Position numbers and translations under genes: made by a program. Source: an uncultured Kiloniellales bacterium (lineage in GTDB: Bacteria > Actinomycetota > Acidimicrobiia > Spongiisociales > UBA5794). From it: 64,000 bases of DNA. The notes beneath the pieces were generated by a model, which searched no databases, was not told the origin of the DNA, and saw only the letters and a program-made list of their open reading frames with translations. Positions 81 through 13,771 of the stretch are shown here, piece by piece (positions within the stretch are counted from its first letter, which is position 1; every line of letters starts with the position of its first letter). The stretch spans positions 4,986-68,985 of the forward strand of contig CAXMOP010000115.1 of NCBI GenBank assembly GCA_964195155.1. Direction: 5' to 3'.

Positions 81-216
81 TCGTCAGTCGTCAGTCGTCA
101 GTCGTCAGTCGTCAGAGGGCGGCGAAAAGGACAACCGCGTCTTCGGGCTGAAGACTGTGGACTCAGGACTGTGGACCTGAGGCCTATGGACTTGAAGACA
201 GGACTTGGACTCTCTT
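81..216. repeat. Heptamer tandem arrays: (TCGTCAG)x5 at 81-115, then about 9 GGACTNN-type units at 153-216
   Basis: Read directly from the sequence. The CAGTC and GACTG cores are complementary, so the two arrays can pair. They lie in the divergent region between the pmm-like start (62) and the GT2 start (238). Confidence 0.85.
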
Positions 217-237
217 TCGCCTCCTACTCTCCCCGAC

Positions 238-936
238 ATGGCCAATGGAACGCCGACCTTCTCGATTGTGATCCCGGTTCATAACGAGGCGAGCTATCTC
301 CCGGGCGCACTCGCCGAGCTCTTCGCCGAGCTGTCGTCGGTCCCGGCCACGGTCAAGGTCCTCGTCGTGGAAAACGGATCGACCGATGCCACTGCGGCGA
401 CTGTGCAGTCGCTCGCCGAGGACTATCCCGGTCTCTCGCTGATCTCCCTTCCCGCCGCCGACTACGGGGCGGCGATGCGAGAGGGGTTTCTCGCTACCGA
501 CGGCGATTGGGCCGTCAATTTCGACATCGACTACTTCTCCGGTGCATTCCTGGCCAGGGTGCTGGAACTCGGGAGCGACGCCGACCTCGTGCTCGCGTCG
601 AAACGCGCCCCTGGAGCGGACGACCGCCGGTCGGGCTTCCGCCGTTTCGCCACCTGGGCGTTCAATCAGATTCTTCGCTTCGGTCTGGGGTCGAGTGTGT
701 CCGACACCCATGGCATGAAGGCGATCCGACGGGAGGTGGTGGCCGTTATCACCCCGGACTGCCGGTCGACCCAGGACCTGTTCGACACCGAGCTCGTGAT
801 GAGAGCCGAACGAGCCGGCTACCGCATCGTCGAGGTGCCGGCGGTAGTGGAAGAGAAGCGGGAGACTCGCTCCAGCCTGATGAACAGGGTGCCCCGCACC
901 CTGCGTGGAGTCATTGCGATTCGCCGGAACCTCTAG
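238..936 (+). CDS. Glycosyltransferase family 2, polyprenol-phosphate sugar synthase-like (Ppm1/GtrB/PpgS type)
   Basis: ATG at 238. TFSIVIPVHNEASYL, VVENGSTD and a DxD-like region are GT2 hallmarks. It is about 230 aa and soluble, as expected for a polyprenyl-P-sugar synthase. Confidence 0.75.
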   Translation: MANGTPTFSIVIPVHNEASYLPGALAELFAELSSVPATVKVLVVENGSTDATAATVQSLAEDYPGLSLISLPAADYGAAMREGFLATDGDWAVNFDIDYFSGAFLARVLELGSDADLVLASKRAPGADDRRSGFRRFATWAFNQILRFGLGSSVSDTHGMKAIRREVVAVITPDCRSTQDLFDTELVMRAERAGYRIVEVPAVVEEKRETRSSLMNRVPRTLRGVIAIRRNL

Positions 937-3035: not shown

Positions 3036-3503
3036 TTAGTCGGCCGCTACCGGCTCAGCCGCTTCCTCCCCGGCGAGGGCACGGCCGAACACGATGTCAC
3101 GGTACGAGGCGAACTTGGGGAGCAGGATCATCACCGAGGCGAACAGATAGACCCCGTTGGCGGCAACGGCAGACAGCGGGCCGAAGAACGACTCGGCAAG
3201 CCACATGATGCCGGCAGTCACCGCCCAGGCAGCCCCATTGACCAGGTAGAACTGGAAGGTCTCGCGCCCGGACAGTTTCCCGTCGCGCAGCTCAAAGGTC
3301 CAGGTGCGGTTGAGCAGGTAGGAGAGGAACGTCGTCACGGCGAAGGCAACCGACACCGAAGCCACCGACGACCAGTCGAATCCGATCAGGAAGAGGTTGA
3401 ACAGCGCAAACGACACCACGGTATTGACCACGCCGACCACGCCGACCTTGACGAACTGGTCGAGCGACTCACGATTGAGGAAGCTCTCGACATACTGCTT
3501 CAC
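3036..3503 (-). CDS. GtrA-family small membrane protein (polysaccharide/lipid-sugar flippase-like)
   Basis: GTG at 3503 preceded by GAGAGGA. It is a 155-aa protein with 4 TM helices and matches the GtrA/DUF2304 profile (VKVGVVGVVNTVVSFALFNLF...). The GTGA overlap with the upstream gene's stop (3500-3503) indicates translational coupling. Confidence 0.8.
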   Translation of the reverse strand: MKQYVESFLNRESLDQFVKVGVVGVVNTVVSFALFNLFLIGFDWSSVASVSVAFAVTTFLSYLLNRTWTFELRDGKLSGRETFQFYLVNGAAWAVTAGIMWLAESFFGPLSAVAANGVYLFASVMILLPKFASYRDIVFGRALAGEEAAEPVAAD

Positions 3504-5725
3504 ACGCCGGTCCTCTCGTTCCGCTCCCGCCGCCGCAAATACGCATAGGCGGCCAGCCCACCAAGCGCGAGCACGGTGAGCACCATGCCGATGTTCTCGG
3601 CACCGGTGTTGCGAAACTCGAGGACTACATCTTCCTGGGTGGGAACGACCACCATCAACGACGGCGCGGCACGGTATGGCCCCTCGGCACCATCCACCTG
3701 CCAATTCGGGAAGTAGGAGATCTTGACCAGATGCGGAACACCAATGGCGGTGGTGGTAAACGACAAGCGATGGTTCTCGAGTACCACGTTGGTCACGGAG
3801 CCGCCCTCCGGATACGGATCGCTGGAGATGAGCCGATCGCCGACCGAGGTCACGGCGGGCCATTCCGCCGGACCGGTCTCGACGAGCCAGTGGTCGAGGT
3901 TGGCGACGTCGTCGTACCACTCGAGTGATGGCTCGAGGAAGTCGCCGCCACCGCCCCACACCGCAGGCGTGACGGTGGCCACGTCGACGAAGTCGGAGTC
4001 CGGCAGCGCGAAGATCGTCCACGGCAAGGCGACACCGACTTCAACGAGGCCTGAGTCTCGAGCCGCGGTTTCCCCACGTTCGGTGAAACTGACGTAATAG
4101 GCCACGTCGTAGAGGGCGAGATGCTGAATACCGCGATCGAGGTCGAAGCCCCGGTAGTCGAGGCCGCGCACCGGGTTGGACGGCCGATCACTGACTTCCG
4201 AGGCGTTGAGGAAGTGGAATGGTGTGGTGAGGGATGATTCGAAGAACAGACCCTCCATGGACGGGTGCTCCTCGCTCCAAAAGCCCGTCAGCATGAGGGC
4301 CATCGGCGTGCCGTACTGGTTGAGTTCGTGGTTCGCCTCCCACATCACCCGGCCAGGCGGGAGTCCGTCGATCTCCTGCATGAGGGCCTCGTATTCGTGG
4401 TAGTTGGGCTTGCCCTCATACCCCTCGTAGTTCCACTTGACCCAGCCCGGAACGTCGTGGATGTTGGCAATGGTGGCGACAAGCACCAGAAACCCGGCAA
4501 TGAGGGACCCGGCGATCAGCACGGTCCTGCGCGCCGACGATCGCCTGGCCACTTCGGTCACCGCGAGTCCCAACGCAATACCGGCAAATACAAACATCCC
4601 GAAATACCAGTACGGCAGCAGCCGGGCGTTGTAGAGGATCGTGACGCCAAGAAGGGGCAGCACGAGATATCCGACGATGGGCAGGACGGTCAACCACGCC
4701 AATGCCACCACGTCGTCACGTCGCAGCATGCTCCACACCACGCCGACACCGCCGAGGATGACGACCGGAACGAACTCTCCCGGGAGCGGGGTCCCGGGAC
4801 TCTGCTCGCCGACGAGACCCGTTACCGCCGACCACCCCATGTCGGTCGTCAGCCCGCCCATCACGCCGAGGATGAGCGGAAGTGCCCAGAACGCGGCAAT
4901 GCCGAAGCCAAGCAGCCACGAGGGAAACACGACCCGTGGCCCGCCCTTACGGAACAGGAGGGGCACCGTTGCGATGACGATGATCATCGTGGTGACGATG
5001 TGGCTGAGCGCGGTCAGCCCGAGCAGCACGCCGGCGAGCGGCGTCCAGCCTCGGCCCTCGCGCACGTCGCGCACGACCACGCCGAGATAGAGGATCGAGA
5101 GGGCAAAAGACCACGAGAAGGAGAACTCGCCGGCGAGGGTGGACTTGATGTTGGCGCCGAAGATCGAATAGCTCTCCATGAACAGAAACATCCCGCCGGC
5201 CACAGCGGCGATCCCTGCGATCGGACGGGAGAACCCGGACATGCGGGAAAACAGATAGGTCACGGCGGGGAGGGCAACCAGGCCGACGATGGTGACCAGC
5301 TTGAACGCGACCCCGTAGGGAAGGACCACGTCGAGCAGCACCGTCGTGACCGCAGGCAAAGGGAAGTAGAAGTAGAGGACGGGGAAACCGGCATACCAGG
5401 CGTTCGACCAGCCCAGCAGCCTTCCCGATGAAATCAGATTGTCCGCCAACACCTTCGGCAGCAGGACGTGGGCGCCCATATCTCCGCCGGTCGGGGTGTT
5501 GGCGACCAGCAGCTGCGGGAATCTGATGAGATCACCGCTGCCGATCGTGCCCAGGATTCCCGACATCACCAGCAGGATGAGCAAGGTGGGAGCGCCGACC
5601 AGGACCGCAATCACCCAGGTCGGCACACCCTGGCGCGGGGTGAGCGGACGGCGAGGAGGCGCCGACTCTGGCGGCGCGATCGCGGTGGTTGACACCAGCG
5701 GCAGGCTAGAGGAGGTGGTGAGCAA
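3500..5725 (-). CDS. Large polytopic membrane protein, GT-C-like glycosyltransferase candidate (about 12 TM N-terminal, about 250-aa extracytoplasmic C-terminus)
   Basis: 741 aa. The architecture and the position upstream of gtrA match a GtrC-like/GT-C transferase. Confidence 0.7.
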   Translation of the reverse strand: MLTTSSSLPLVSTTAIAPPESAPPRRPLTPRQGVPTWVIAVLVGAPTLLILLVMSGILGTIGSGDLIRFPQLLVANTPTGGDMGAHVLLPKVLADNLISSGRLLGWSNAWYAGFPVLYFYFPLPAVTTVLLDVVLPYGVAFKLVTIVGLVALPAVTYLFSRMSGFSRPIAGIAAVAGGMFLFMESYSIFGANIKSTLAGEFSFSWSFALSILYLGVVVRDVREGRGWTPLAGVLLGLTALSHIVTTMIIVIATVPLLFRKGGPRVVFPSWLLGFGIAAFWALPLILGVMGGLTTDMGWSAVTGLVGEQSPGTPLPGEFVPVVILGGVGVVWSMLRRDDVVALAWLTVLPIVGYLVLPLLGVTILYNARLLPYWYFGMFVFAGIALGLAVTEVARRSSARRTVLIAGSLIAGFLVLVATIANIHDVPGWVKWNYEGYEGKPNYHEYEALMQEIDGLPPGRVMWEANHELNQYGTPMALMLTGFWSEEHPSMEGLFFESSLTTPFHFLNASEVSDRPSNPVRGLDYRGFDLDRGIQHLALYDVAYYVSFTERGETAARDSGLVEVGVALPWTIFALPDSDFVDVATVTPAVWGGGGDFLEPSLEWYDDVANLDHWLVETGPAEWPAVTSVGDRLISSDPYPEGGSVTNVVLENHRLSFTTTAIGVPHLVKISYFPNWQVDGAEGPYRAAPSLMVVVPTQEDVVLEFRNTGAENIGMVLTVLALGGLAAYAYLRRRERNERTGV

Positions 5726-5883
5726 TCCTCCGGCGGGCCGCTGCGGTCAGGAGAAACCAAGTCACCGGATTATCCGAGCAAGCGGCGGCACGTAGCACTC
5801 GTCATTGTTCACCACCGTCCTAGTGAGGCAGGCTTTCTAGGGGTATGGCCGGCAGCCGTGCGCGCCGCCGCCCAAGCATCGCT

Positions 5884-6084
5884 TCAGGGTTCGCCGCGCT
5901 CCACATCGAGCAATGCGCCGAGTTCGAGATGCTCACCGTCGCGGTCCCACCACTTCGACTCACAGCGGTGGCATGAGCAGAAGATGACCTGAGAGCCATC
6001 CGGGAGGGTCAGCTCGATCTGGATGACCGAGTCGTTGCCACATTCTGCGCAGCGGAGCCCGGATGAGGGTTCTTGCCTTCCCAT
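5884..6084 (-). CDS. Small zinc-ribbon protein (CxxC...CxCHRC)
   Basis: 66 aa with CAECG and CSCHRCE cysteine pairs. Confidence 0.5.
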   Translation of the reverse strand: MGRQEPSSGLRCAECGNDSVIQIELTLPDGSQVIFCSCHRCESKWWDRDGEHLELGALLDVERGEP

Positions 6085-6103
6085 GACCGGTCAGGGTAGC
6101 GCG

Positions 6104-6391
6104 CTAAGCGCGAAAAGCGGCCTCTGGGAGGTCCTCGAGTTTGCCGAGGTAGCGCGACCGACGTTTGCCGTCCTCGGACCAATAGGCGTACCAATACGGG
6201 CCGTGGGGACAGCGGGTGCAGCTCTCCTTTCCGCAACGCACCTTCTGCTGGCGCAGCTTCACGTTGGGCCCGCGGTCGGAGAGCACCAGGCCCCGGCTCT
6301 CCAACCGGGCCTTGGCCAGGATGTAGAGGCGGCGCAGTTCGTGCTCATCCATCTCACGGACCGCCTCGAGCACATCTCTGTCGATTGGCAT
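6104..6391 (-). CDS. Hypothetical protein with a C-terminal CxxxxC..C..H motif
   Basis: ATG at 6391 is confirmed (MPIDRDVLEAV...). The C-terminus reads CGKESCTRCPHGPYWYAYW. Confidence 0.5.
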   Translation of the reverse strand: MPIDRDVLEAVREMDEHELRRLYILAKARLESRGLVLSDRGPNVKLRQQKVRCGKESCTRCPHGPYWYAYWSEDGKRRSRYLGKLEDLPEAAFRA

Positions 6392-6449
6392 GGAGCAAAC
6401 GAACTTAGGGCTCGGCGGGCTTCGGACCAAGGACTCAGGCGGTTGCCGG

Positions 6450-6512
6450 CCACTGGCCACTGGTCATTGGTCACTCGTCACTGGTCACTCGTCACTGATC
6501 TCACTCGTCACC
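6450..6512. repeat. Heptamer tandem array (CACTGGT/CACTCGT)x about 8
   Basis: Directly visible as ccactggccactggtcattggtcactcgtcactggtcactcgtcactga. It lies between two co-directional minus-strand genes. Confidence 0.85.
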
Positions 6513-6891
6513 GATCAAGCCCCGCTCGCCTTGCCGCGTCGCTCAGCGATCGCCGTCTCGGCACGCCGGCGACGAGGAGCTCGACCCGGAGGTCCCGATT
6601 GACTACCGCGGTGAGCGGGACGGATTCGACGCCGAGCTCCTCGAACACGGTCGGCTCGAGCTCCCAGGTGACCTCTCTCAGCGGCACACCGAGGGACTCA
6701 ACCATTGCCAGGGCTTGCTTGCAGTTCGCGCAGTCGGTGGAAGTGAAGACGACGACCCCGGGCTTGTCGGTGAGACCACCCAGGTCGATCGGCGGATGGG
6801 ATGGGCGGCGCCATCGTGCGATGAGCCTGGCGATGGCGATCACGATCAGGACTGCCAACAGCACGACGGCAATCCTGATCGCGATCGTCAC
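6508..6891 (-). CDS. Membrane-anchored thioredoxin/glutaredoxin-like protein (CANC motif)
   Basis: GTG at 6891 overlaps the upstream stop (GTGA). An N-terminal TM helix is followed by VVVFTSTDCANCKQA. Confidence 0.6.
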   Translation of the reverse strand: MTIAIRIAVVLLAVLIVIAIARLIARWRRPSHPPIDLGGLTDKPGVVVFTSTDCANCKQALAMVESLGVPLREVTWELEPTVFEELGVESVPLTAVVNRDLRVELLVAGVPRRRSLSDAARRAGLDR

Positions 6892-8348
6892 TCGACCGGG
6901 ATCCCGCCGATAAAGGCCACGCCGCGGCTGCTGGAAACGGAAAGGGCGGCACTGATTGGCACGGTCGCATCGATGATTACGCCGGACGTTCCGCTCTCGG
7001 TCACCTCGCCGAACGGGATCTCCACCTGCCGGCCCGGCAGGATGATGATCTTGTCCGGCCCTGCCGCGGCGGCGCCGAGTGGGGTGATGGTCACCGTGGC
7101 CTGATCGCCAGACGGGTTGATGATCCACAACGAGGTTTCGGCGGCAGGAACCACTCCGACACCGGGGATGATCCAGCGGGTCGCGGGATCGATATTGCCG
7201 GTCGTTGACGCCAGCCCGTTGAAGACCGCCGGCACCACGGGCTCTTCGGCTACAACGTCGCCCTCACCACCGCTATCGGGGGGCGGGTCCGCCGCATCGT
7301 CGGAGATGTCGTCGCCCACCACCGGATCAGCGCGGGGAAATGTGCCGGGCGGCGCAGCCTGGATCACTGCTCCCACCGGGACATTCGACCTGACCCTGAC
7401 GCCGAACGGCGGGTCGGCAAAGTCGCTCAGCTCGAGCCGTATCGGCTGGTTTGGCGACACCAACAGGCTAGTTACCTCCAGGATCGGCCCGCCGGGAGCG
7501 AAGATGTCGATGGCGACGTTCGCGGCCAGGCTGCCGGTATTGGAAAGGACGAGGGTGGGTTCGAGGCCGGGAACGCTGGTCACCGGGAAGTCCCAGGTCG
7601 CCGAACGACTCGTCCCGTTCCAGGTGGCTTCGTCTTGCTCGTTGCTCAGCACCAATGCGGGAATGACCAGCCCGGGATCGGTCTGCACGGTGAGGGTGAC
7701 GGTGTCGAGGAAGGGGATCACCCGAGAGAGGTCCTCGGTGACCCACGATCGGCCGGGAACGTCGAGCCCCTCGAAGCCGCCGAGGGGTGAGCTCCCGAAC
7801 TCACTGATCGCTTGCACCGTCACCTTGGCCGACTCCGGGAACGGATTGAAGAGCCTGAGCTGCAGGGTGAAACCCTCCGCGGTCGTGCCACCGACGAGGT
7901 GCCATACCTTCGGCACGGAGGCCACGCACTGGTCCCCACTCAGCAGATTCTCGGTCCACATCGCGGTGGTCACCACCGCCGGGCCGTCGTCGAACTCCAC
8001 GATGCCGGGCGACTCGCCTCGTCGCACGATCTCCGCGGTGTCGACGCTGCGGGCATCGGCGCCTTGCAGCTGGAATGCCAGGAGGTCCGGCTCGAGGATC
8101 GGGTTGACGTTTGGCAGCGTGATGAGTGCTTCCACATTGACCGCAGTGGCCACGTCGTATGTTGAATCCCTGACCGCGCCCGACGCCACCCACGGGCAAT
8201 ACCAGACGCTCTCCTCGCCCACCGCGCCGGCGGCATCGACCGGGACGGGGAACCCGAGGGCGGAGCCTTGGGACGGCACCGGCTCTGGCTGAACGAACGC
8301 CAACCCCGCCAGGACCATGAGTACGACGACGACGGCGATCCTTCTCAT
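6888..8348 (-). CDS. Secreted protein of unknown function (signal peptide MRRIAVVVVLMVLAGLAFVQP)
   Basis: ATG at 8348 forms an ATGA overlap with the upstream GT2 gene's stop. 487 aa, rich in beta-type sequence, with no recognisable catalytic motif. Confidence 0.65.
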   Translation of the reverse strand: MRRIAVVVVLMVLAGLAFVQPEPVPSQGSALGFPVPVDAAGAVGEESVWYCPWVASGAVRDSTYDVATAVNVEALITLPNVNPILEPDLLAFQLQGADARSVDTAEIVRRGESPGIVEFDDGPAVVTTAMWTENLLSGDQCVASVPKVWHLVGGTTAEGFTLQLRLFNPFPESAKVTVQAISEFGSSPLGGFEGLDVPGRSWVTEDLSRVIPFLDTVTLTVQTDPGLVIPALVLSNEQDEATWNGTSRSATWDFPVTSVPGLEPTLVLSNTGSLAANVAIDIFAPGGPILEVTSLLVSPNQPIRLELSDFADPPFGVRVRSNVPVGAVIQAAPPGTFPRADPVVGDDISDDAADPPPDSGGEGDVVAEEPVVPAVFNGLASTTGNIDPATRWIIPGVGVVPAAETSLWIINPSGDQATVTITPLGAAAAGPDKIIILPGRQVEIPFGEVTESGTSGVIIDATVPISAALSVSSSRGVAFIGGIPVE

Positions 8349-11131
8349 CCGAATCTCCGCCCCGCCCACGCAGAGACAACCAGCACAGACAGCCAAACGG
8401 CGGCGAGGATCGCCTGGGTGCGGCGCTCACCGATCGGAGCGAAGGCGGCCGTCCCGCTGTCCGCCGAAACCTCGTTCCACACGCCCGATTGAGCCCAAGG
8501 CGCAGGTCCCCATCGGCCGTGTGCGTTGTCGCGAACGGTGAGTCGGCTCCCCGTCTCCGCGGTCCCCTCGTAGTCGGCGCCGACACTCGGCCATGCGATT
8601 CCGGCCGACGTCATGGAACGGAAGGCTCCCGCTGCCTCAATTTCATACGTCTCGTTCTCCAACCCTGCGCTGAGCGAGACGATGTCGAGTTGGCCGGTCA
8701 GCCGCTCGGACCAGGCCGCGGCGTAGGGCTGGTCCTGCATGATCACGATCCATCGGATGCCGAAGGAGGCAAGCGCCTCGCCCGCCCGGGAGGTCTCCCC
8801 AGCGATGACCGACAACAGCTCGGCGTGCAGCGCGTCGTCTGCGGGCCGCGGTGCGGCGAGATCGGCCTCCCACAACTCGACCGTGGGCGCCGAGACGACC
8901 CGGTAGGCCGCGCCCTCGATGATGCGCTCGTCGCCCGGCAGCTCCCCGGGTGCACCGAGAAGCAACACGCGAGACTCGGCGGCGTCGCCGGGTCGAGCCT
9001 CGGTGAAGGCAAGCGCCTCGCGATACCGGTCTGGAGGGAGCCCCGCCCTCCCTCCCAGCAATACGGTGGACGAGGCCGCCAGCAGCACCAGGGCGCCGGC
9101 AACGGCGACGCCGCCGACGATCCGCCGCCAGCCGCTGGTCTCGGAGCGCGTGATGGCCTCGAGCGCCGCACCGGTGATCGCCGCCAGACCGAGCGTGACG
9201 AGGGTCAATCCGGCGTATCCGATCTCGCTGCCACCGCCGAGACCGGCACTCCTCGCCAGGAGGGCTCCGCCGGCAGCGAGCACGCCGCCCCAACCGGCAA
9301 CCAGGGCAAGGCGCCGCGGCGCCGAGACGACGACGGCCACGGCTGCGATCATCGTCGCCGCGACCACCACGATCGAGGTCGACCAGAATGCGGCACCCTG
9401 GGTGAGGAATACGTTCAGATCGACGGCGCCGGCCCACGGAAACAGCATCGGAATCGCCAGGACGACTCCCGCGCCGCTGATCGCCACGGCCCGCCACGCC
9501 CCGCCGTCGTTCACGTTGATCAAAGCCCATACCAGCAATGCCACAACCGGCACGAGTAGCAGCGAAGGAGAAGCCAGGGCGACGATGCCGGTGCTGGCGC
9601 CGATAGCGGCGACCCGACCTGCCCGGCCAAGGGCGGTCTTCGGCCACCGGGCCAGCGCCAGTCGCAGCACCAACGGAACCACACCAAGCCCGATCATCGT
9701 CCCGATGGCGGTCTGCGAGGCCAGACCCTGGTACGCCGACCCGGTCACGTACACCAGACCGGCAAGGGTGCCGGGCACCGCCTTGATCCCCCATCCACGC
9801 AGCAATCGAACGGTCCCCCATACCCCGAGGAGGGCCGATCCGGCGATGGCTACATACTCGGCGAGCCGGCCGGAGTCGAGGGTCAGCCCGCGTAGAACGC
9901 TGACGACGGCAACCAGTGGCGGAAGCACCTCTTCGCTGCCGAATCCGGCGGGGTTCCATCCACCGGCATACGCGCCGAGGCCCGCCAGCCAGGAGCCCGG
10001 AAACGCCAGACTCTCGCCAACGGCCGGAAGCCCGAACGACCAGAGCGAGCGGACGGCGATCAGGACCAGGAACACCGCGGCGACACCCACGATCAACGAC
10101 GGTCGCCGCAACTCCTGGCCGATCGCCTCAACCCCGATCGCGTCTTCACCGGGAAGCCTGGCCCTGATCCGGTCCGACAGTTGAGACGAGGTGCGTTTGA
10201 GTGATACCGACCCGCTGACTTGATAGCGGAAGAGCTCTTCATCGCCGACGGCACGCGCATGTCTGGCGCGTCGGCGCTCCCCGAGCGTGTTCGGCAGACG
10301 CACCAGATTCCAGGCCCAGGCGCGAAGCCAGTCGAAGAACGTCCATCGGCCCAGGAACAGGGAAAGCGTCGAATCGGCAAAGCCGGAAAGGAAGGCAACC
10401 GGCACCGTCCACAGCAGGGTCAACGGCCCGTAGACCTTGCCCATCGCCCGGAACCTGCCGGCGCGCTCGCGCCACGGCTCCCGCTCGGTTCCCCCGTCCA
10501 CAACGAGAACCTCAGACGACGGGACCACGATGACCCTTGCGCCGCGGAGCCGTGCCCGCTGGCAGAAGTCCGTCGCCGCGGCGAGGGACGGCAGGAGTCG
10601 GTCCGGCCCTCCGAGGCCGCGAGCGAGGTCTCGTCGCACGAACAGCGACTCACCGCCGACGGCTGCGACATCGCGCACGACGTCGTACTGGCCCTGGTCG
10701 AGTTCGTCGTCGTCGAGCCCGGTGTACGGGGAATCAAAGACGTCGGTGGCGAAGCCGACCGACAGCAGGTGACCCGGATCGTCGAGGTCGAGGATCTTGG
10801 ATCCGGCGACCGCAGCGTCAAGGGAGGTCGCGGTGTCGGCGAGGGCGGCAAGGGCATCGGTGCGGGGTCTGGCGCCGCTGCGCACAAACCAGAGGTGGCT
10901 CGCGGTGCTGCCATCGCGGGAAAACATGGCGGCGATGGCCGGAAACCATTCGACGTCCTCCGCACCGGCGAGACGACGCGCATCGGTGTCACCGCCGATA
11001 ATGACGATCTCGTCCGACTCGTACACTTGGCCACGAACCGCATCGAGGGTTTCGGCAAGGCCGGGCGTGCTGCCAACGAGAATGGCGGTGACGACCGAGG
11101 CGGGGTTCGCTCCCGCGGAAGAGGCTGACAT
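8345..11131 (-). CDS. Glycosyltransferase family 2 domain fused to a large (about 650-aa) polytopic membrane domain
   Basis: The N-terminus SVVTAILVGSTPGLAETLDAVRGQV with ESDEIVII is GT2-like, and the remainder is highly hydrophobic. The start at 11131 is tentative: it overlaps the cofD start divergently (catg) and has no Shine-Dalgarno sequence. Confidence 0.7.
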   Translation of the reverse strand: MSASSAGANPASVVTAILVGSTPGLAETLDAVRGQVYESDEIVIIGGDTDARRLAGAEDVEWFPAIAAMFSRDGSTASHLWFVRSGARPRTDALAALADTATSLDAAVAGSKILDLDDPGHLLSVGFATDVFDSPYTGLDDDELDQGQYDVVRDVAAVGGESLFVRRDLARGLGGPDRLLPSLAAATDFCQRARLRGARVIVVPSSEVLVVDGGTEREPWRERAGRFRAMGKVYGPLTLLWTVPVAFLSGFADSTLSLFLGRWTFFDWLRAWAWNLVRLPNTLGERRRARHARAVGDEELFRYQVSGSVSLKRTSSQLSDRIRARLPGEDAIGVEAIGQELRRPSLIVGVAAVFLVLIAVRSLWSFGLPAVGESLAFPGSWLAGLGAYAGGWNPAGFGSEEVLPPLVAVVSVLRGLTLDSGRLAEYVAIAGSALLGVWGTVRLLRGWGIKAVPGTLAGLVYVTGSAYQGLASQTAIGTMIGLGVVPLVLRLALARWPKTALGRAGRVAAIGASTGIVALASPSLLLVPVVALLVWALINVNDGGAWRAVAISGAGVVLAIPMLFPWAGAVDLNVFLTQGAAFWSTSIVVVAATMIAAVAVVVSAPRRLALVAGWGGVLAAGGALLARSAGLGGGSEIGYAGLTLVTLGLAAITGAALEAITRSETSGWRRIVGGVAVAGALVLLAASSTVLLGGRAGLPPDRYREALAFTEARPGDAAESRVLLLGAPGELPGDERIIEGAAYRVVSAPTVELWEADLAAPRPADDALHAELLSVIAGETSRAGEALASFGIRWIVIMQDQPYAAAWSERLTGQLDIVSLSAGLENETYEIEAAGAFRSMTSAGIAWPSVGADYEGTAETGSRLTVRDNAHGRWGPAPWAQSGVWNEVSADSGTAAFAPIGERRTQAILAAVWLSVLVVSAWAGRRFG

Positions 11132-12101
11132 GAACGACGCTATTCAAGAGACGAAGCCGCGCTATTCCAATCATCCGCGCCTTGCCGTCCTATGCGGCGG
11201 CGTCGGCGGGGCACGGGCGGCCAGGGCTCTGGCGAGTGTCCTCCCCGCCCCGCATCTCACCGTAATCGGCAACGTCGGGGACGACGAAGTGCGCTACGGC
11301 GTCCACGTGTCGGCAGACATGGACACGATCGTGTACACCCTGGCCGGGCTTCAGGGCCCGCACGGGTGGGGCATCGCCGGGGACACGTTTGCCGTGATGG
11401 ACCAATTGTCGGTGCTCGGTGAGGACACCACCTTCCGGCTCGGCGACCAGGATCTGGCCACCTGTCTGCATCGGACGGTTCGGCTGGGGGCCGGTGATTC
11501 CCTGTCGACGACGATCGCCGAGGGTGCTGCCGCGTTTGGCGTCACGGTGCTGGTCCTCCCGGCCACCGATGATCGGCTTCGCACCGAGATCATCACCAGC
11601 GACGGGGAGCGCCTGGCCTTCCAGGACTATTTCGTCATCCGTGGTCACCGCGATGAGGTCGCCGGGCTCGACTTCGTCGGCAGCGAGGCGGCAGTGCCTG
11701 CCCCGGGTGTGGTGGAGGCGATCGAGGAAGCCGATGTCGTCGTCATCGCACCGTCGAACCCGCCACTCTCGATCTGGCCGATTCTTGCGGTTGGCGACAT
11801 CGCGGCGGCGGTGGATCGGCACGACCGGGTGGTGGCGATCAGCCCGCTGTTCGGGGGTGCGCCCATCAAGGGACCGGCCGATCGTGTCCTCGCCTCGCTT
11901 GGCTTTGCGCCGGGAAATGAGGGAGTTGCGGGTGCCTATGCCGGTCTGCTCAGCGATCTCGTCATCGACGTCGGTGACGCCGCCGACATCGAGCTGCTGG
12001 CGGCGCCCCAACTGGCCGTGCACGCACTTGACACGCGAATGGGTGGGCCCAATGCGGGTAAGCGCTTCGCCGCCTCCCTGCTGGAGACGCTCGGATGGTG
12101 A
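11130..12101 (+). CDS. cofD: 2-phospho-L-lactate transferase CofD (FbiA), F420 biosynthesis
   Basis: LAVLCGGVGGAR, the DTIVYTLAG region and GWGIAGDTF are CofD/LPPG:FO transferase hallmarks. Confidence 0.85.
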   Translation: MNDAIQETKPRYSNHPRLAVLCGGVGGARAARALASVLPAPHLTVIGNVGDDEVRYGVHVSADMDTIVYTLAGLQGPHGWGIAGDTFAVMDQLSVLGEDTTFRLGDQDLATCLHRTVRLGAGDSLSTTIAEGAAAFGVTVLVLPATDDRLRTEIITSDGERLAFQDYFVIRGHRDEVAGLDFVGSEAAVPAPGVVEAIEEADVVVIAPSNPPLSIWPILAVGDIAAAVDRHDRVVAISPLFGGAPIKGPADRVLASLGFAPGNEGVAGAYAGLLSDLVIDVGDAADIELLAAPQLAVHALDTRMGGPNAGKRFAASLLETLGW

Positions 12102-12796
12102 AGCGGATCGAGCTCATCCCCGTTGAGGGAGTTCCGGAGGTCCGGTCGGGCGACGAACTCGGCGGGATGATCGTCGCCGCCCTGGCGTCGTCGGGCGAGT
12201 CGCTCATCGACGGCGACGTGCTGGTCGTGACCCACAAGGTGATCTCGAAAGCCGAGGGACGGATCGCCGAGGTCGCTTCGGAGGAGGACTACCGAAAGCT
12301 GGTGGAGGACGAGGCCGAATCCATCATCCGCCGGCGGGGCGACCTCGTCATCACCAAGACGCGCCACGGCTTCATCTGCGCCAACGCCGGTGTCGATCGC
12401 TCGAATACCGCAGAGGGAACCGCGGTGCTGCTGCCGATCGAGCCGGATCGATCGGCCCATCGCCTTCGCGTCCAGATCCAGCACATGTTCGGGGTGTCGA
12501 TTGCCGTCGTAGTCACCGACACCTTTGGCCGCGCCTGGCGCCGCGGCCTGGTCGACGTGGCCATCGGGGTGTCTGGCCTGCCGGCGATCGTCGACCTGCG
12601 CGGCACCACCGACGCCTTCGGCCGAGTCCTCGACGTCACCGAGATCGCCCTCGTCGACGAGATCGCCGCTGCCGCCGACCTGGTGATGGGCAAGGCCAGC
12701 CAGGTCCCGGCGGCAATCCTGCGCGGGCTCACCCTCACCGGCGACGGCCGGGCCACCGACCTGGTCCGCCCCCCCGATGAAGACCTGTTCCGATGA
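12095..12796 (+). CDS. cofE: Coenzyme F420-0:L-glutamate ligase CofE (FbiB N-terminal domain type)
   Basis: An ATGGTGA overlap with the cofD stop. The VITHKVISKAEGR and ICANAGVD motifs are present. Confidence 0.85.
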   Translation: MVKRIELIPVEGVPEVRSGDELGGMIVAALASSGESLIDGDVLVVTHKVISKAEGRIAEVASEEDYRKLVEDEAESIIRRRGDLVITKTRHGFICANAGVDRSNTAEGTAVLLPIEPDRSAHRLRVQIQHMFGVSIAVVVTDTFGRAWRRGLVDVAIGVSGLPAIVDLRGTTDAFGRVLDVTEIALVDEIAAAADLVMGKASQVPAAILRGLTLTGDGRATDLVRPPDEDLFR

Positions 12797-12878
12797 GTCG
12801 CGAGTCACGAGTCGCGAGTCGCGAGCCCGAATCTTCGGTCGTGGTTTTGCTCGCGACTCGCGACTCGCGTCTGGCGTC
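12795..12878. repeat. Inverted heptamer arrays (GAGTCGC)x4-loop-(GCGACTC)x3 forming a long hairpin
   Basis: Directly visible as gagtcgcgagtcacgagtcgcgagtcgcgag ... ctcgcgactcgcgactcgcg, between cofE and fpg. Confidence 0.9.
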
Positions 12879-12883
12879 TTCTC

Positions 12884-13771
12884 ATGCCTGAGCTGCCTGA
12901 GATCGAGGCGTACCTGTATGCGCTGCGACCGCGGATCGTTGGCCGCCAACTGAAGGAGCTCCGGGTGGCCAGCTTCTCGCTGCTCCGCACCTACGACCCA
13001 CCGGTGTCGGCGGTGGAAGGCAAGGAGGTTGCCGGGGTGCACCGCATCGGGAAGCGCATCGCCATCGACCTCGAGGACGATCTCGCCATCGTGGTTCACC
13101 TGATGATCGCCGGACGGTTGAAGTGGGAGAAGGTGGGCAAGGCGATTCCAAAACGTTACGGGCTCGCCGCCCTCGACTTCGACGACGGAACGCTGCTGCT
13201 GACCGAGGCCGGCACAAAGCGACGGGCGACGATGCACATCGTGCGGGGAGACGAGTCGCTCGATGCGCTCGACCCCGGCGGCGCCGAGCTCGCCGACTTG
13301 GACGTGGCAGGTTTCAAGGAACGTCTACTCGTAGAGCGCCACACCCTCAAGCGAAGCCTCACCGATGCCCGATTCCTTTCTGGAATCGGTGGCGCGTTCG
13401 CCGATGAGATCCTGTGGCAGGCCAAGCTGTCGCCTACCCAGATCAACACCAACCTCGACGACGAGGAGGTCGAGCGTCTGTACCGCGCCAGCGTCGGCGT
13501 CATGGATCGGTGGACCGAGGTGCGCATCGACGAGACCGGCGACGGCTTCCCCGAGAAGGTCACCGCCTTTCATCCCGGCATGGGGGTGCACGGCAAGTTC
13601 GGCGAGGCTTGCCCGGAATGTGGCGCCCCGGTGCAGCGCATCGTGCATGGTCGCCGCGAGACCAACTACTGCCCGGGGTGTCAGACCGGAGGCAGGATCC
13701 TCGCCGACCGATCACTGTCGCGGCTCCTCAAGGACGACTGGCCGAAGACCCTGGACGAGCTAGAGGACTAG
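12884..13771 (+). CDS. Formamidopyrimidine-DNA glycosylase / endonuclease VIII family (Fpg/Nei)
   Basis: The N-terminus MPELPEIE carries the catalytic Pro2 and Glu3. The C-terminal zinc finger is CPECGAPVQR...CPGCQ. Confidence 0.85.
   Translation: MPELPEIEAYLYALRPRIVGRQLKELRVASFSLLRTYDPPVSAVEGKEVAGVHRIGKRIAIDLEDDLAIVVHLMIAGRLKWEKVGKAIPKRYGLAALDFDDGTLLLTEAGTKRRATMHIVRGDESLDALDPGGAELADLDVAGFKERLLVERHTLKRSLTDARFLSGIGGAFADEILWQAKLSPTQINTNLDDEEVERLYRASVGVMDRWTEVRIDETGDGFPEKVTAFHPGMGVHGKFGEACPECGAPVQRIVHGRRETNYCPGCQTGGRILADRSLSRLLKDDWPKTLDELED

What the first reader, a model, noticed from the sequence alone, without database searches (positions are those of the whole stretch)
6508..11131. Coupled operon of a GT2 fused to a polytopic membrane domain, a secreted protein and a thioredoxin-like protein, with a start codon interlocked with cofD
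A 928-aa protein combines a GT2 catalytic domain with about 14 TM helices. It is followed by a 487-aa secreted protein (ATGA overlap) and a membrane-anchored CxxC thioredoxin-like protein (GTGA overlap). The arrangement suggests synthesis and export of a polymer plus extracytoplasmic redox maturation.

The predicted start of the GT2-membrane gene (ATG at 11131-11129, minus strand) shares the tetranucleotide CATG with the cofD start (ATG at 11130-11132, plus strand). The two divergent genes therefore have no intergenic region at all. Either one start is mis-assigned, or both promoters lie inside the partner's coding sequence.
Basis: partly seen in the sequence, partly recalled or inferred. Interest (0 to 1): 0.5.

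Follow-up and report, generated by a model that had tools for sequence, protein, structure and literature searches.

The report
Interlocked divergent starts; degenerate GT-A/GT-C fusion operon
Two back-to-back genes in an Acidimicrobiia genome really do share the four bases CATG as their start codons, apparently because each carries the other's expression signals inside its first codons, and the "glycosyltransferase" of the pair has lost its usual catalytic motifs and is fused to a second, membrane-embedded glycosyltransferase-like fold of unknown function.

Summary
Three minus-strand genes are coupled by ATGA and GTGA overlaps: 8345-11131, 6888-8348 and 6508-6891. The ATG of the first shares CATG with the cofD ATG at 11130.

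Both starts hold. An in-frame TGA lies five codons upstream of the 928-aa gene. Its N-terminus is conserved in orthologues, and strand beta1 of the predicted structure is residues 13-19. No other canonical start fits either gene.

Across 80 Acidimicrobiia loci the synteny is conserved. The starts overlap by 2 nt in 32 loci and abut in 17.

A promoter-like element, TTGNNN-17 nt-(CA/TT)GAAT, ends 7-10 nt before the ATG in 68 of 78 loci. It lies inside cofD codons, which use rare ATT, AAT and CAA there. No Shine-Dalgarno (SD) sequence precedes the ATG. This points to a leaderless operon mRNA. The cofD SD sits in codons 3-5 of the 928-aa gene.

The 928-aa protein joins a GlfT2-like GT-A domain to an AftD-like GT-C-fold membrane module. 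Its clade has lost the D, DD and ED motifs that longer relatives keep.

The second gene is DUF5719, an anchored chain of beta-sandwich domains. The Trx-like domain is probably cytoplasmic. The function is inferred only: extracytoplasmic glycoconjugate assembly.

The parts
8345..11131 (-). 928-aa fusion protein. It has a cytoplasmic GT-A domain, a TM hairpin, an arginine-rich cytoplasmic linker, an 11-helix GT-C-fold module, an extracytoplasmic alpha/beta domain and a C-terminal TM helix.
10487..11131 (-). GT-A (GlfT2-like) domain, residues 1-215, with degenerate catalytic motifs: G46, S85-G86 and A185-A186 where relatives have D, DD and ED.
9053..10102 (-). GT-C-fold membrane module, residues 344-693. 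The first extracytoplasmic loop carries the clade-invariant motif Y388-A-G-G-W-N-P394.
8432..9052 (-). Extracytoplasmic C-terminal alpha/beta domain, residues 694-900. Conserved residues include R695, D701, R721, R744, E755, D765, R793/W794, D816 and R838. The final TM helix (901-927) is encoded by 8351-8431.
   Evidence: AF2 secondary structure and alignment invariants.
6888..8348 (-). DUF5719 protein, 486 aa. It has an N-terminal MRR+hydrophobic signal or anchor and then about four beta-sandwich domains. C51 and C141 are invariant. Its ATG overlaps the upstream stop (ATGA), and a GGAG lies 6 nt upstream.
   Evidence: Pfam PF18986 at E 1.7e-22. AF2 pLDDT 87, all-beta. Only generic macroglobulin/Ig-like matches were found. 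Junction sequence. Invariant residues.
6508..6891 (-). 127-aa single-pass thioredoxin/glutaredoxin-like protein with CxxC (C-A-N-C). Its GTG overlaps the upstream stop (GTGA).
   Evidence: Sub-threshold Glutaredoxin and Thioredoxin hits. FTST(D/E)CxxC...REVT(W/Y)E is conserved in nearly all of the ~60 orthologues whose ORF was recovered; three ORF extractions were out of frame. Junction sequence. The gene is absent from some loci.
11130..12101 (+). cofD (2-phospho-L-lactate transferase), 323 aa. Its ATG shares CATG with the divergent gene. Residues 1-17 form an N-terminal extension ahead of the GGVGG fold.
   Evidence: PF01933 at 1.7e-38 and TIGR01819 at 4e-71. Start candidates are listed.
11142..11170 (-). 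Putative sigma-A-type promoter of the GT2 operon, embedded in cofD codons 5-14. It consists of -35 TTGGAA (11170-11165), a 17-nt spacer and -10 TTGAAT (11147-11142). The ATG lies 10 nt downstream, which gives a leaderless or 0-3-nt-leader mRNA.
   Evidence: The pattern occurs in 68 of 78 loci. The spacer is always 17 nt, and the -10 element ends 7-10 nt before the ATG in 67 of the 68. The start codon is always ATG. Background frequency is 0.11 per kb. Rare codons are fixed under the motif. No SD is present: mean duplex energy -0.9 kcal/mol.
11117..11124 (+). Shine-Dalgarno sequence of cofD (GGAAGAGG), 5 nt before its ATG and lying in codons 3-5 of the GT2 gene.
   Evidence: Sequence. Anti-SD duplex energy is -5.8 kcal/mol here, and the mean over loci is -5.0 against -0.9 for the GT2 start.
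11022..11027 (+). Candidate -10 element (TACACT) for cofD, about 100 nt upstream of its ATG and inside GT2 codons Q35-V36-Y37. This is weak evidence.
   Evidence: CAAGTGTAC is conserved at the DNA level. The Q35 codon is the rare CAA in 77 of 78 loci, against a 23% baseline. No convincing -35 was found.
3036..6391 (-). Same-strand genes that are syntenic in nearly all related loci: a DUF6788-like small protein (6104-6391), a 741-aa polytopic membrane protein (3500-5725, no family) and a GtrA-like protein (3036-~3503).

Best explanation
Both start codons are genuine, and the two divergent genes appear to carry each other's expression signals in their first codons.

Sequence shows:
- The 928-aa gene can only start at the ATG at 11131.
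- cofD can start no later than the ATG at 11130.

Inferred from comparative evidence:
- The GT2-DUF5719-Trx operon is transcribed as a leaderless (0-3 nt leader) mRNA.
- Its promoter is of the sigma-A type: -35 TTGGAA, a 17-nt spacer and -10 TTGAAT, at 11170-11142 on the minus strand.
- That promoter is written into cofD codons 5-14. There it forces rare AT-ending codons (Ile ATT, Gln CAA, Asn AAT).
- cofD is translated from an SD (GGAAGAGG, 11117-11124) that lies in codons 3-5 of the 928-aa gene.
- cofD must therefore be transcribed from a promoter inside that gene. TACACT at 11022-11027 is a weak candidate.

Protein anatomy, shown at the level of predicted fold:
- The 928-aa product is a cytoplasmic GlfT2-like GT-A domain fused to an AftD-like GT-C-fold membrane module, followed by an extracytoplasmic domain.
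- In this Acidimicrobiia clade the GT-A domain has lost the beta2 Asp, the DD motif and the ED catalytic base. The 1000-1100-aa relatives retain all three. The domain is therefore most likely a non-catalytic (regulatory or scaffolding) pseudo-glycosyltransferase.

Function, inferred only:
- The GT-C-fold module acts on the outer face of the membrane in assembly or modification of a cell-envelope glycoconjugate, together with the membrane-anchored beta-sandwich protein DUF5719.
- It probably uses polyprenyl-phosphate sugars made and flipped by the neighbouring canonical DPMS-like GT2 (205-936) and the GtrA-like protein (3036-3503).
- The small CxxC protein is an accessory that is probably tethered to the membrane on the cytoplasmic side.
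For: Starts:
- A TGA lies 5 codons upstream, and the ATG is the only candidate before residue 13.
- The N-terminus MSxxPExxPPxSVVAAIVV is conserved in orthologues down to 47% identity.
- AF2 places beta1 at residues 13-19 and alpha1 at 25-33, with pLDDT near 88-90.
- The cofD ATG is the only candidate conserved in position across the clade.

Conservation of the arrangement:
- 80 loci show the synteny cofE-cofD<>GT2-DUF5719-(Trx)-DUF6788-mem741-GtrA.
- A 2-nt CATG overlap is found in 32 loci and a 0-nt gap in 17.

Promoter:
- TTGNNN-17-(CA/TT)GAAT occurs in 68 of 78 loci. The spacer is always 17 nt and the start codon is always ATG. The distance from the -10 element to the ATG is 7-10 nt in 67 of the 68.
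- In orthologues with MASFM, the first ATG overlaps the -10 hexamer. The window has ATA at that position.

Synonymous-site constraint:
- Ile is ATT in 73 of 74 loci, against 10% elsewhere in cofD.
- Gln is CAA in 27 of 28, against 23% elsewhere.
- Asn is AAT in 55 of 67, against 22% elsewhere.
- Invariant residues just downstream (GGVGGAR) have scrambled codons, with the top codon at 33-72%.

SD energies average -0.9 kcal/mol for GT2 and -5.0 for cofD. Leaderless mRNAs with a -10 element 7-12 bp upstream of the start, and closely juxtaposed divergent promoters, are common in Actinobacteria (PMC3898074).

Fold:
- Foldseek gives AftD at E 4e-9.

Degeneracy (window clade versus distant relatives):
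- Position 46 is G in 65 of 68, against D in 21 of 24.
- Position 86 is G in 63 of 68, against D in 19 of 24.
- Position 186 is A, S or G in 68 of 68, against D or E in 21 of 24.

Context: a canonical GT2 (PF00535, 6e-18), a GtrA-like protein (7e-15), and PMM and a PGI_C-like gene nearby.
Against: - No transcription start site or N-terminal peptide data exist. The promoter is inferred from conservation and geometry only.
- The -10 hexamer of the window clade (TTGAAT) lacks the canonical A at position 2. A scan with the E. coli consensus found nothing.
- The conserved boxes could instead, or in addition, be a regulator binding site.
- The cofD promoter is not located with confidence.
- The GT-A domain keeps many invariant acidic residues (D130, E143, D145, D154, D168, D177, D188), so an unconventional active site cannot be excluded.
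- The catalytic positions were mapped by sequence alignment to relatives and by AF2 secondary structure, not by structural superposition.
- The first extracytoplasmic loop of the GT-C-fold module has no invariant Asp or Glu, in this clade or in distant relatives. Glycosyltransferase activity of that module is therefore unproven too.
- mem741 was not modelled.
- Use of polyprenyl-phosphate sugars rests on gene neighbourhood alone.
Confidence: 0.62

Rival explanations
1. One start is mis-assigned. The 928-aa gene really begins at GTG V36 (window 11026), as the gene callers chose, giving an 893-aa protein and a normal intergenic region of 55-100 nt that holds both promoters.
For: Identical database proteins P0001-P0003 are called at 893 aa, and many orthologues are called from the equivalent M/VYE... 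position. The ENA contig annotation has GT2 at 893 aa and cofD at 339 aa, with a 55-nt gap. The DNA around the GTG (CAAGTGTAC) is unusually conserved.
Against: - In all 68 loci with the promoter motif, the reading frame stays open from an in-frame ATG about 31-35 codons upstream of Q35.
- Residues 12-35 are conserved as protein.
- AF2 folds residues 13-19 and 25-33 as beta1 and alpha1 of the GT-A Rossmann core at pLDDT near 88-90. A V36 start would delete them.
- No SD precedes the GTG.
- The callers' choice is what one would expect if they penalise overlap between genes on opposite strands (my inference; not tested).
Confidence: 0.07
2. One reading: the 928-aa protein is an active processive GT2 synthase whose TM helices form the export channel. 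DUF5719 handles the secreted polymer, and an extracytoplasmic thioredoxin matures the exported proteins.
For: - A WRERAGR helix follows the GT-A domain, where synthases have QxxRW. This comparison is from memory and was not tested.
- DUF5719 has two invariant Cys residues that could form a disulfide.
- Distant relatives keep the D, DD and ED motifs.
Against: - In this clade the beta2 Asp is G in 65 of 68 sequences, the second D of the DD motif is G in 63 of 68, and the catalytic-base position is never acidic (0 of 68).
- The Pfam GT2 hit is below threshold, and no PDB GT2 is found by sequence.
- For the membrane part, GT-C enzymes align over more residues than the synthases do: 308-429 aligned residues for AftD, Pmt4, AglB, STT3B, AftA and ArnT, against 238-250 for the synthases.
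- The Trx-like protein has M-(S/T)-D...R on the N side of its TM helix and RRxQRPxHP on the C side. This predicts an N-out/C-in orientation.
- The Trx gene is missing in about ten loci.
Confidence: 0.12
3. The conserved boxes in the first cofD codons are not a promoter. They are the binding site of a regulator, or an RNA element, that coordinates F420 biosynthesis with the envelope operon. Alternatively they simply reflect selection on the CofD N-terminal peptide.
For: - The boxes translate into a conserved CofD peptide, I(Q/L)...Y(S/R)N.
- cofD-cofE adjacency to this operon is conserved in nearly all 80 loci.
- TTGAAT lacks A at position 2 of the hexamer.
Against: - Peptide selection cannot explain the fixation of rare synonymous codons (ATT 99%, CAA 96%, AAT 82%) while neighbouring invariant residues have scrambled codons.
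- The geometry is that of a sigma-70-family promoter feeding a leaderless mRNA: TTG, exactly 17 nt, a hexamer ending in GAAT, then 7-10 nt to an invariable ATG without an SD.
- No Rfam family matches.
- A regulator site overlapping the promoter is not excluded and is compatible with the main explanation.
Confidence: 0.15

Closest known systems
GlfT2 (Rv3808c), mycobacterial galactan polymerase, CAZy GT2 (PDB 4FIX)
   Different: - Sequence identity is 14%, and no match is detectable at the sequence level.
- The window clade lacks the DD(x) motif and the acidic catalytic-base position.
- GlfT2 is a peripheral protein that is not fused to a polytopic membrane domain (from my own knowledge).
AftD (Rv0236c homologue) and other GT-C arabinofuranosyltransferases (PDB 6W98/6WBX; AftA 8IF8, AftB 9DLH)
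   Different: - There is no Pfam GT-C_AftD hit, or any other family hit.
- The first extracytoplasmic loop has no invariant acidic residue.
- According to its structure paper, AftD carries its own carbohydrate-binding beta-sandwich domains (recalled from memory). Here a string of beta-sandwich domains is a separate protein (DUF5719).
- The donor substrate is unknown.
Three-component Gtr-type glycosylation systems (GtrA/GtrB/GtrC; CsbB/GtcA/YfhO; mycobacterial PpgS-Rv3632-Rv3779)
   Same: The neighbourhood holds a canonical DPMS/GtrB-like GT2 (205-936), a GtrA-family protein (3036-3503) and polytopic membrane proteins with large outer domains. This is the logic of making a polyprenyl-phosphate sugar inside and transferring it outside. 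The named systems are from my own knowledge.
   Different: - The GT-C-fold protein here carries its own degenerate GT-A domain.
- It is paired with DUF5719.
- The canonical GT2 lies on the opposite strand about 5 kb away.
- No biochemical link has been shown.
Leaderless mRNAs and juxtaposed divergent promoters of Actinobacteria (M. tuberculosis TSS map, PMC3898074)
   Same: Shared features are a -10 element 7-12 bp upstream of a transcription start site that coincides with the start codon, the absence of an SD, and closely juxtaposed divergent promoters.
   Different: - The two coding sequences overlap head to head by 2 nt, so there is no intergenic DNA at all.
- The promoter is wholly inside the partner's codons and visibly constrains its synonymous sites.
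- A recognisable -35 TTG with a fixed 17-nt spacer is present, whereas the Mtb survey found no -35 consensus.

Membership tests
CAZy GT2 / GT-A glycosyltransferases | GT-A (Rossmann-like) fold | tested here: met
CAZy GT2 / GT-A glycosyltransferases | DxD (DD) metal/nucleotide-sugar motif after beta4 | tested here: not met
   The window has F-V-R-S-G-A after beta4 (residues 79-84). Position 86 is G in 63 of 68 clade members, whereas 19-20 of 24 distant relatives have D-D at positions 85-86.
CAZy GT2 / GT-A glycosyltransferases | Acidic catalytic base in the (E/D)D-x-D-L-C-x-R-A motif | tested here: not met
   The window has A-A-A-T-D-F-C-Q-R-A. Position 186 is A, S or G in 68 of 68 clade members, against D or E in 21 of 24 distant relatives. 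The assignment of this position as the catalytic base is from general GT2 knowledge and was not superposed.
CAZy GT2 / GT-A glycosyltransferases | Sequence-profile membership (Pfam gathering score) | tested here: not met
   PF13632 scores 19.6 bits against a cutoff of 27. There is no NCBIfam hit. Some orthologues carry a precomputed PF13641 hit.
GT-C superfamily | GT-C membrane fold: conserved multi-helix core and a first extracytoplasmic loop with juxtamembrane helices | tested here: met
GT-C superfamily | Conserved Asp/Glu in the first extracytoplasmic loop acting in catalysis | tested here: inconclusive
   There is no invariant acidic residue in residues 367-404. The E/D near 402-403 is frequent but replaced in some orthologues. 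The invariant residues are Y388, A389, G390, W392, N393 and P394. Other extracytoplasmic acidic residues (D571, D701, E755, D765, D816) are conserved.
GT-C superfamily | Use of a polyprenyl-phosphate-linked sugar donor | not testable with these tools
   Only context is available: a DPMS-like GT2 and a GtrA-like gene nearby.
DUF5719 (PF18986) | Profile match above the gathering score | tested here: met
   80.4 bits against a cutoff of 26.2, E 1.7e-22. All 120 listed homologues carry PF18986.
Thioredoxin-fold thiol-disulfide oxidoreductases | CxxC active site in a Trx/Grx fold | tested here: inconclusive
   CxxC is conserved in nearly all of the ~60 orthologues whose ORF was recovered. The Glutaredoxin, Thioredoxin_3 and YruB hits are all below their cutoffs: 20.9 against 22.9, 17.5 against 24.8 and 20.3 against 88.6. 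The fold was not modelled.
   The positive-inside rule argues against it: one Arg on the N side of the TM helix, against RRxQRPxHP (3-4 positive charges) on the C side. No topology predictor was available.
Leaderless actinobacterial transcripts | A -10 element about 7-12 nt upstream of a start codon that is also the transcription start site; no SD; ATG or GTG start | tested here: met
   The -10 element ends 7-10 nt before the ATG in 67 of the 68 loci that carry the motif. The start codon is always ATG. Mean anti-SD duplex energy is -0.9 kcal/mol. Criteria are from PMC3898074.
Leaderless actinobacterial transcripts | An experimentally mapped 5' end at the start codon | not testable with these tools
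   No transcriptome data are available for these uncultured Acidimicrobiia.

The most novel reading that the evidence does not exclude
The 928-aa protein and DUF5719 form a previously undescribed actinobacterial envelope machine. In it a GT-A domain fused to a GT-C-fold module has become a pseudo-enzyme in Acidimicrobiia and now gates or scaffolds an extracytoplasmic glycosyl transfer. Expression of the machine is physically interlocked with F420 biosynthesis, through reciprocal embedding of promoter and SD in the first codons of cofD and the operon. Transcription of one gene would then directly interfere with, or be coordinated with, the other.
Probability: 0.2. Interest if true: 0.6.

Novelty: new variant of a known kind. 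Interest (0 to 1): 0.42.

Why it matters
- **A real head-to-head overlap.** Head-to-head gene overlaps are usually dismissed as annotation errors, and automatic callers did 'repair' this one wrongly. Here comparative data show a real one and explain it. A promoter for a leaderless mRNA is written into the partner's codons and leaves a measurable codon-usage footprint. The partner's SD sits in the operon's first codons.
- **A practical consequence for annotation.** Many database entries for this family are truncated by 35 residues, which removes beta1 and alpha1 of the GT-A fold.
- **An unstudied protein pair.** The work defines the architecture of a widespread, uncharacterised actinobacterial pair: a GT-A/GT-C-fold fusion plus DUF5719. 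There are 614 clusters at 50% identity with E<=1e-30, and no paper mentions DUF5719. The Acidimicrobiia branch carries a degenerate GT-A domain. That makes it a tractable case for studying pseudo-glycosyltransferases and envelope assembly in a poorly known class.

Tried and rejected
- **Family searches on the membrane parts.** Pfam and NCBIfam found no family for residues 340-928 or for the 741-aa membrane protein, even at E<=10.
- **Sequence searches of the PDB.** A full-length profile and a GT-A-only profile gave only noise. Catalytic residues therefore could not be mapped through a solved homologue.
- **hhalign comparisons.** The family profile against the window's canonical GT2 and against mem741 gave no significant alignment. 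mem741 is not a detectable paralogue of the membrane module.
- **Literature.** A search for 'DUF5719' returned 0 papers. My recollection that Rv3256c might be the mycobacterial DUF5719 was wrong: it is a SIS-domain protein. A search for GT-A/GT-C fusions found nothing relevant.
- **E. coli-consensus promoter and terminator scan of 10800-11500.** It found no sites. It requires A at position 2 of the -10 hexamer, so it misses TTGAAT.
- **Other leaderless promoters in the window.** A scan of the whole window for similar leaderless promoters at other long ORFs was uninformative.
- **Rfam scan of 5500-13000.** It gave only sub-threshold miRNA-like hairpins.
- **Hairpin at the start of the Trx gene.** It has a 21-bp stem and z -4.4, but it is not conserved in five orthologous loci. 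I regard it as incidental.
- **DUF5719 fold search.** It gave only generic multi-beta-sandwich matches with TM-scores near 0.1, apart from one single-domain match to TM1070 (1NC7). No function can be drawn from it.
- **Names for distant relatives.** The cluster look-up returned only 'GT2 family glycosyltransferase' or 'hypothetical protein', with no taxonomy.

Full report
**1. Observation**

The minus strand carries three overlapping ORFs.
- The first is 8345..11131, 928 aa, with an ATG start.
- The second is 6888..8348, 486 aa. Its ATG at 8348-8346 overlaps the TGA at 8347-8345, and a GGAG lies 6 nt upstream.
- The third is 6508..6891, 127 aa. Its GTG at 6891-6889 overlaps the TGA at 6890-6888.

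On the plus strand, cofD starts at 11130 (PF01933 1.7e-38, TIGR01819 4e-71) and is followed by cofE. The sequence gacATGaac at 11127-11135 shows that the two divergent ATGs share CATG.

**2. Are the starts right?**

For the 928-aa gene:
- An in-frame TGA lies five codons upstream of the ATG.
- No other ATG, GTG or TTG occurs before residue 13.
- Full-length orthologues at 47-83% identity share the N-terminus MSxxPExxPPxSVVAAIVV..L..TLEAVRRQVY.
- The AlphaFold2 model (68-sequence alignment, mean pLDDT 88.7) makes residues 13-19 strand beta1 and residues 25-33 helix alpha1 of the GT-A core.

The 893-aa database versions of the identical protein start at GTG V36. On the same ENA contig cofD is called 16 codons longer, at 339 aa from the ATG at 11082. 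The caller thereby created a 55-nt gap. I take this to be an artefact.

For cofD, no canonical start lies between 11130 and the GGVGG motif. Upstream candidates vary in position between orthologues, whereas the CATG ATG does not. A head-to-head overlap of at least 2 nt is therefore unavoidable.

**3. Conservation of the arrangement**

A scan of GTDB species genomes returned 378 relatives. The best 80 loci are all Acidimicrobiia or Actinomycetota MAGs.

tblastn with the window's proteins shows one gene order in nearly all of them: cofE<-cofD <> GT2->DUF5719->(Trx-like)->DUF6788-like->741-aa membrane protein->GtrA-like.

Among the 58 loci that could be analysed precisely:
- 32 have the same 2-nt CATG overlap.
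- 17 have a cofD GTG abutting the operon's ATG (CAC|ATG, gap 0).
- The rest vary.

**4. How two genes can be expressed with no intergenic DNA**

Two DNA boxes are conserved upstream of the operon's ATG, even between clades whose proteins are about 45% identical.

The strict pattern TTGNNN-N17-(CA|TT)GAAT is present in 68 of 78 loci.
- The spacer is always 17 nt.
- The hexamer ends 7-10 nt before the first in-frame start in 67 of the 68.
- That start is always ATG.
- The pattern's background frequency in the same loci is 0.11 per kb.

In the window the elements are -35 TTGGAA (11170-11165) and -10 TTGAAT (11147-11142), with the ATG 10 nt downstream.

CAGAAT and TTGAAT are each one mismatch from the actinomycete TAGAAT-type -10 element. 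That consensus is from my own knowledge. The Mtb consensus TANNNT, 7-12 bp upstream of the transcription start site, is from PMC3898074.

The ATG has no SD: mean anti-SD duplex energy is -0.9 kcal/mol. The cofD start has one: mean -5.0, and -5.8 in the window from GGAAGAGG at 11117-11124, which lies in operon codons 3-5.

In orthologues whose ORF begins MASFM, the first ATG overlaps the -10 hexamer and so cannot be on the transcript. The window has ATA there.

The boxes are the reverse complement of cofD codons I-(Q/L) and Y-(S/R)-N. The decisive test is at synonymous sites.

| cofD residue under the boxes | Codon and frequency at the box | Frequency of that codon elsewhere in cofD |
|---|---|---|
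| Ile | ATT, 73 of 74 loci | 10% |
| Gln | CAA, 27 of 28 loci | 23% |
| Asn | AAT, 55 of 67 loci | 22% |

As a control, invariant residues a few codons downstream (G-G-V-G-G-A-R) have scrambled codons, with the top codon at 33-72%. An invariant Asn 25 codons further on is AAC in 91% of loci. Selection therefore acts on the DNA, not only on the CofD peptide.

The best explanation is a sigma-A-type promoter for a leaderless (0-3 nt leader) operon mRNA, embedded in cofD's 17-residue N-terminal extension.

cofD must in turn be transcribed from inside the 928-aa gene.
- The only hint is the DNA-level conservation of CAAGTGTAC at Q35-V36-Y37, where CAA occurs in 77 of 78 loci.
- Its complement contains TACACT (11022-11027).
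- This is weak evidence, and no -35 was found.

None of this is experimentally mapped.

**5. What the proteins are**

*The 928-aa protein.*
- At the sequence level it barely registers as GT2: PF13632 scores 19.6 bits, below threshold. It has no PDB relative by sequence.
- The helices from the model, combined with the positive-inside rule, give the following layout: cytoplasmic GT-A (1-215), an interface helix and TM hairpin (220-290), an arginine-rich cytoplasmic linker, eleven TM helices (344-693), an outer alpha/beta domain (694-900) and a last TM helix (901-927).
- An exhaustive profile search finds 6589 relatives at E<=1e-3 and 614 clusters at 50% identity with E<=1e-30. These include many proteins of 1000-1200 aa that align over profile positions ~10-845.
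- Aligning 24 of those proteins with the window clade shows that they keep the canonical GT2 motifs and the window clade does not.

| Motif (window position) | Window clade (68 sequences) | Distant relatives (24 sequences) |
|---|---|---|
| Asp after beta2 (46) | G in 65 | D in 21 |
| D-D after beta4 (85-86) | position 85 acidic in 26; position 86 G in 63 | D in 20 and 19 |
| (E/D)-D before D-L-C-W-R-A (186) | A, S or G in 68 | D or E in 21 |

- The Acidimicrobiia GT-A domain is therefore most likely non-catalytic, although it remains highly conserved (D130, E143, D145, D154, D168, D177, D188).
- The first outer loop of the GT-C-fold module carries the clade-invariant YAGGWNP. W392 is conserved across the whole superfamily. 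The loop has no invariant acidic residue. Its catalytic status is open.

*DUF5719.*
- It matches PF18986 at E 1.7e-22.
- It has an MRR+hydrophobic N-terminus and then about four beta-sandwich domains (AF2 pLDDT 87).
- Cys51 and Cys141 are invariant.
- Structural matches are generic.

*The Trx-like protein.*
- It keeps FTST(D/E)CxxC...REVT(W/Y)E in nearly all of the ~60 orthologues whose ORF was recovered.
- All profile hits are below threshold.
- It has 3-4 positive charges on the C-terminal side of its TM helix and about one on the N side, which predicts a cytoplasmic domain.
- The gene is absent from about ten loci.

**6. Likely function (inferred)**

The neighbourhood contains:
- a canonical DPMS/GtrB-like GT2 (205-936; PF00535 6e-18);
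- a GtrA-family protein;
- a second large polytopic protein with an outer domain;
- just beyond the window edge on the source contig, PMM/PGM, a PGI_C/SIS protein and SahH.

This resembles actinobacterial pathways in which polyprenyl-phosphate sugars made inside the cell are used by GT-C enzymes outside it.

I therefore propose that the GT-C-fold module works with DUF5719 on an envelope glycoconjugate, and that the dead GT-A domain is a cytoplasmic regulatory or scaffolding remnant. My confidence in this functional part is about 0.4. My confidence in the start and promoter architecture is about 0.8.

**7. Comparison with known systems and novelty**

The individual pieces are known kinds: a GT-A fold, a GT-C fold, leaderless mRNAs and juxtaposed divergent promoters.

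I could not find the following described:
- a GT-A/GT-C-fold fusion family paired with DUF5719 (0 papers mention DUF5719);
- its degenerate Acidimicrobiia branch;
- a comparatively supported head-to-head start overlap with a promoter inside the partner's codons.

I rate it a new variant of known kinds, of moderate interest.

**8. Dead ends**

These are listed in full under 'tried and rejected'. They include:
- an unconserved hairpin at the start of the Trx gene;
- sub-threshold Rfam hits;
- the incorrect Rv3256c lead;
- uninformative cluster names.

Noticed in passing
window 6104-6391 (-): The DUF6788-like small protein is 95 aa from M24, with a C-x2-C...C-P-H zinc-ribbon-like motif. It is the most conserved protein of the cluster: 62-89% identity in loci where the 928-aa protein is 43-73% identical. 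It is always located between the Trx-like or DUF5719 gene and the 741-aa membrane protein.
   Followed up: partly
window 6460-6510 (-): The intergenic stretch after the Trx-like gene holds short tandem repeats: (cagtgacgagtgac) x3, then (cagtggc) x2. Their meaning is unknown.
   Followed up: no
window 6805-6915 (-): A very stable hairpin begins right after the Trx-like GTG start, inside its TM-helix codons. It has a 21-bp perfect stem, an MFE of -60.5 kcal/mol and z -4.4. It is not conserved in five orthologous loci, so it is probably incidental.
   Followed up: yes
window 3500-5725 (-) and 3036-3503 (-): The 741-aa protein has about 11 TM helices, a large C-terminal outer domain and a final TM helix. 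It has no Pfam, NCBIfam or PDB match. Its 3' end overlaps the start of a GtrA-family gene. Its architecture resembles a GT-C enzyme, but it was not modelled. It is not detectably homologous to the membrane module of the 928-aa protein.
   Followed up: partly
window 205-936 (+) and 933-~1750 (-): A canonical DPMS/GtrB-like GT2 with intact motifs (ENGSTD, DID) converges on an MmyB-like HTH regulator gene (PF17765). On the source contig, the next genes beyond the window edge are PMM/PGM, Trm112p, a PGI_C/SIS protein and AdoHcyase.
   Followed up: partly
window 12791-12877: A palindromic hairpin lies between the cofE stop and the fpg-like gene (12884-13771). It produced sub-threshold miRNA-family hits on both strands. 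It may be a bidirectional terminator-like structure, but the scan of 10800-11500 did not cover it.
   Followed up: no
L081/L082 (ENA contigs identical to the window) and database proteins P0001-P0003, P0009, P0027 etc.: There is a systematic annotation error in public data. Many members of this family are called 30-40 residues short, starting at the conserved V/M-Y-E, because callers avoid the head-to-head overlap with cofD. On the same contigs cofD is called 16 codons too long.
   Followed up: yes
distant relatives P0314, P0329: Among the ~1050-aa relatives that normally keep the DD and ED motifs, a few have lost both motifs together (RTGA/VADLD and RPGA/AADLD). This suggests repeated, independent degeneration of the GT-A domain in this superfamily.
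   Followed up: no
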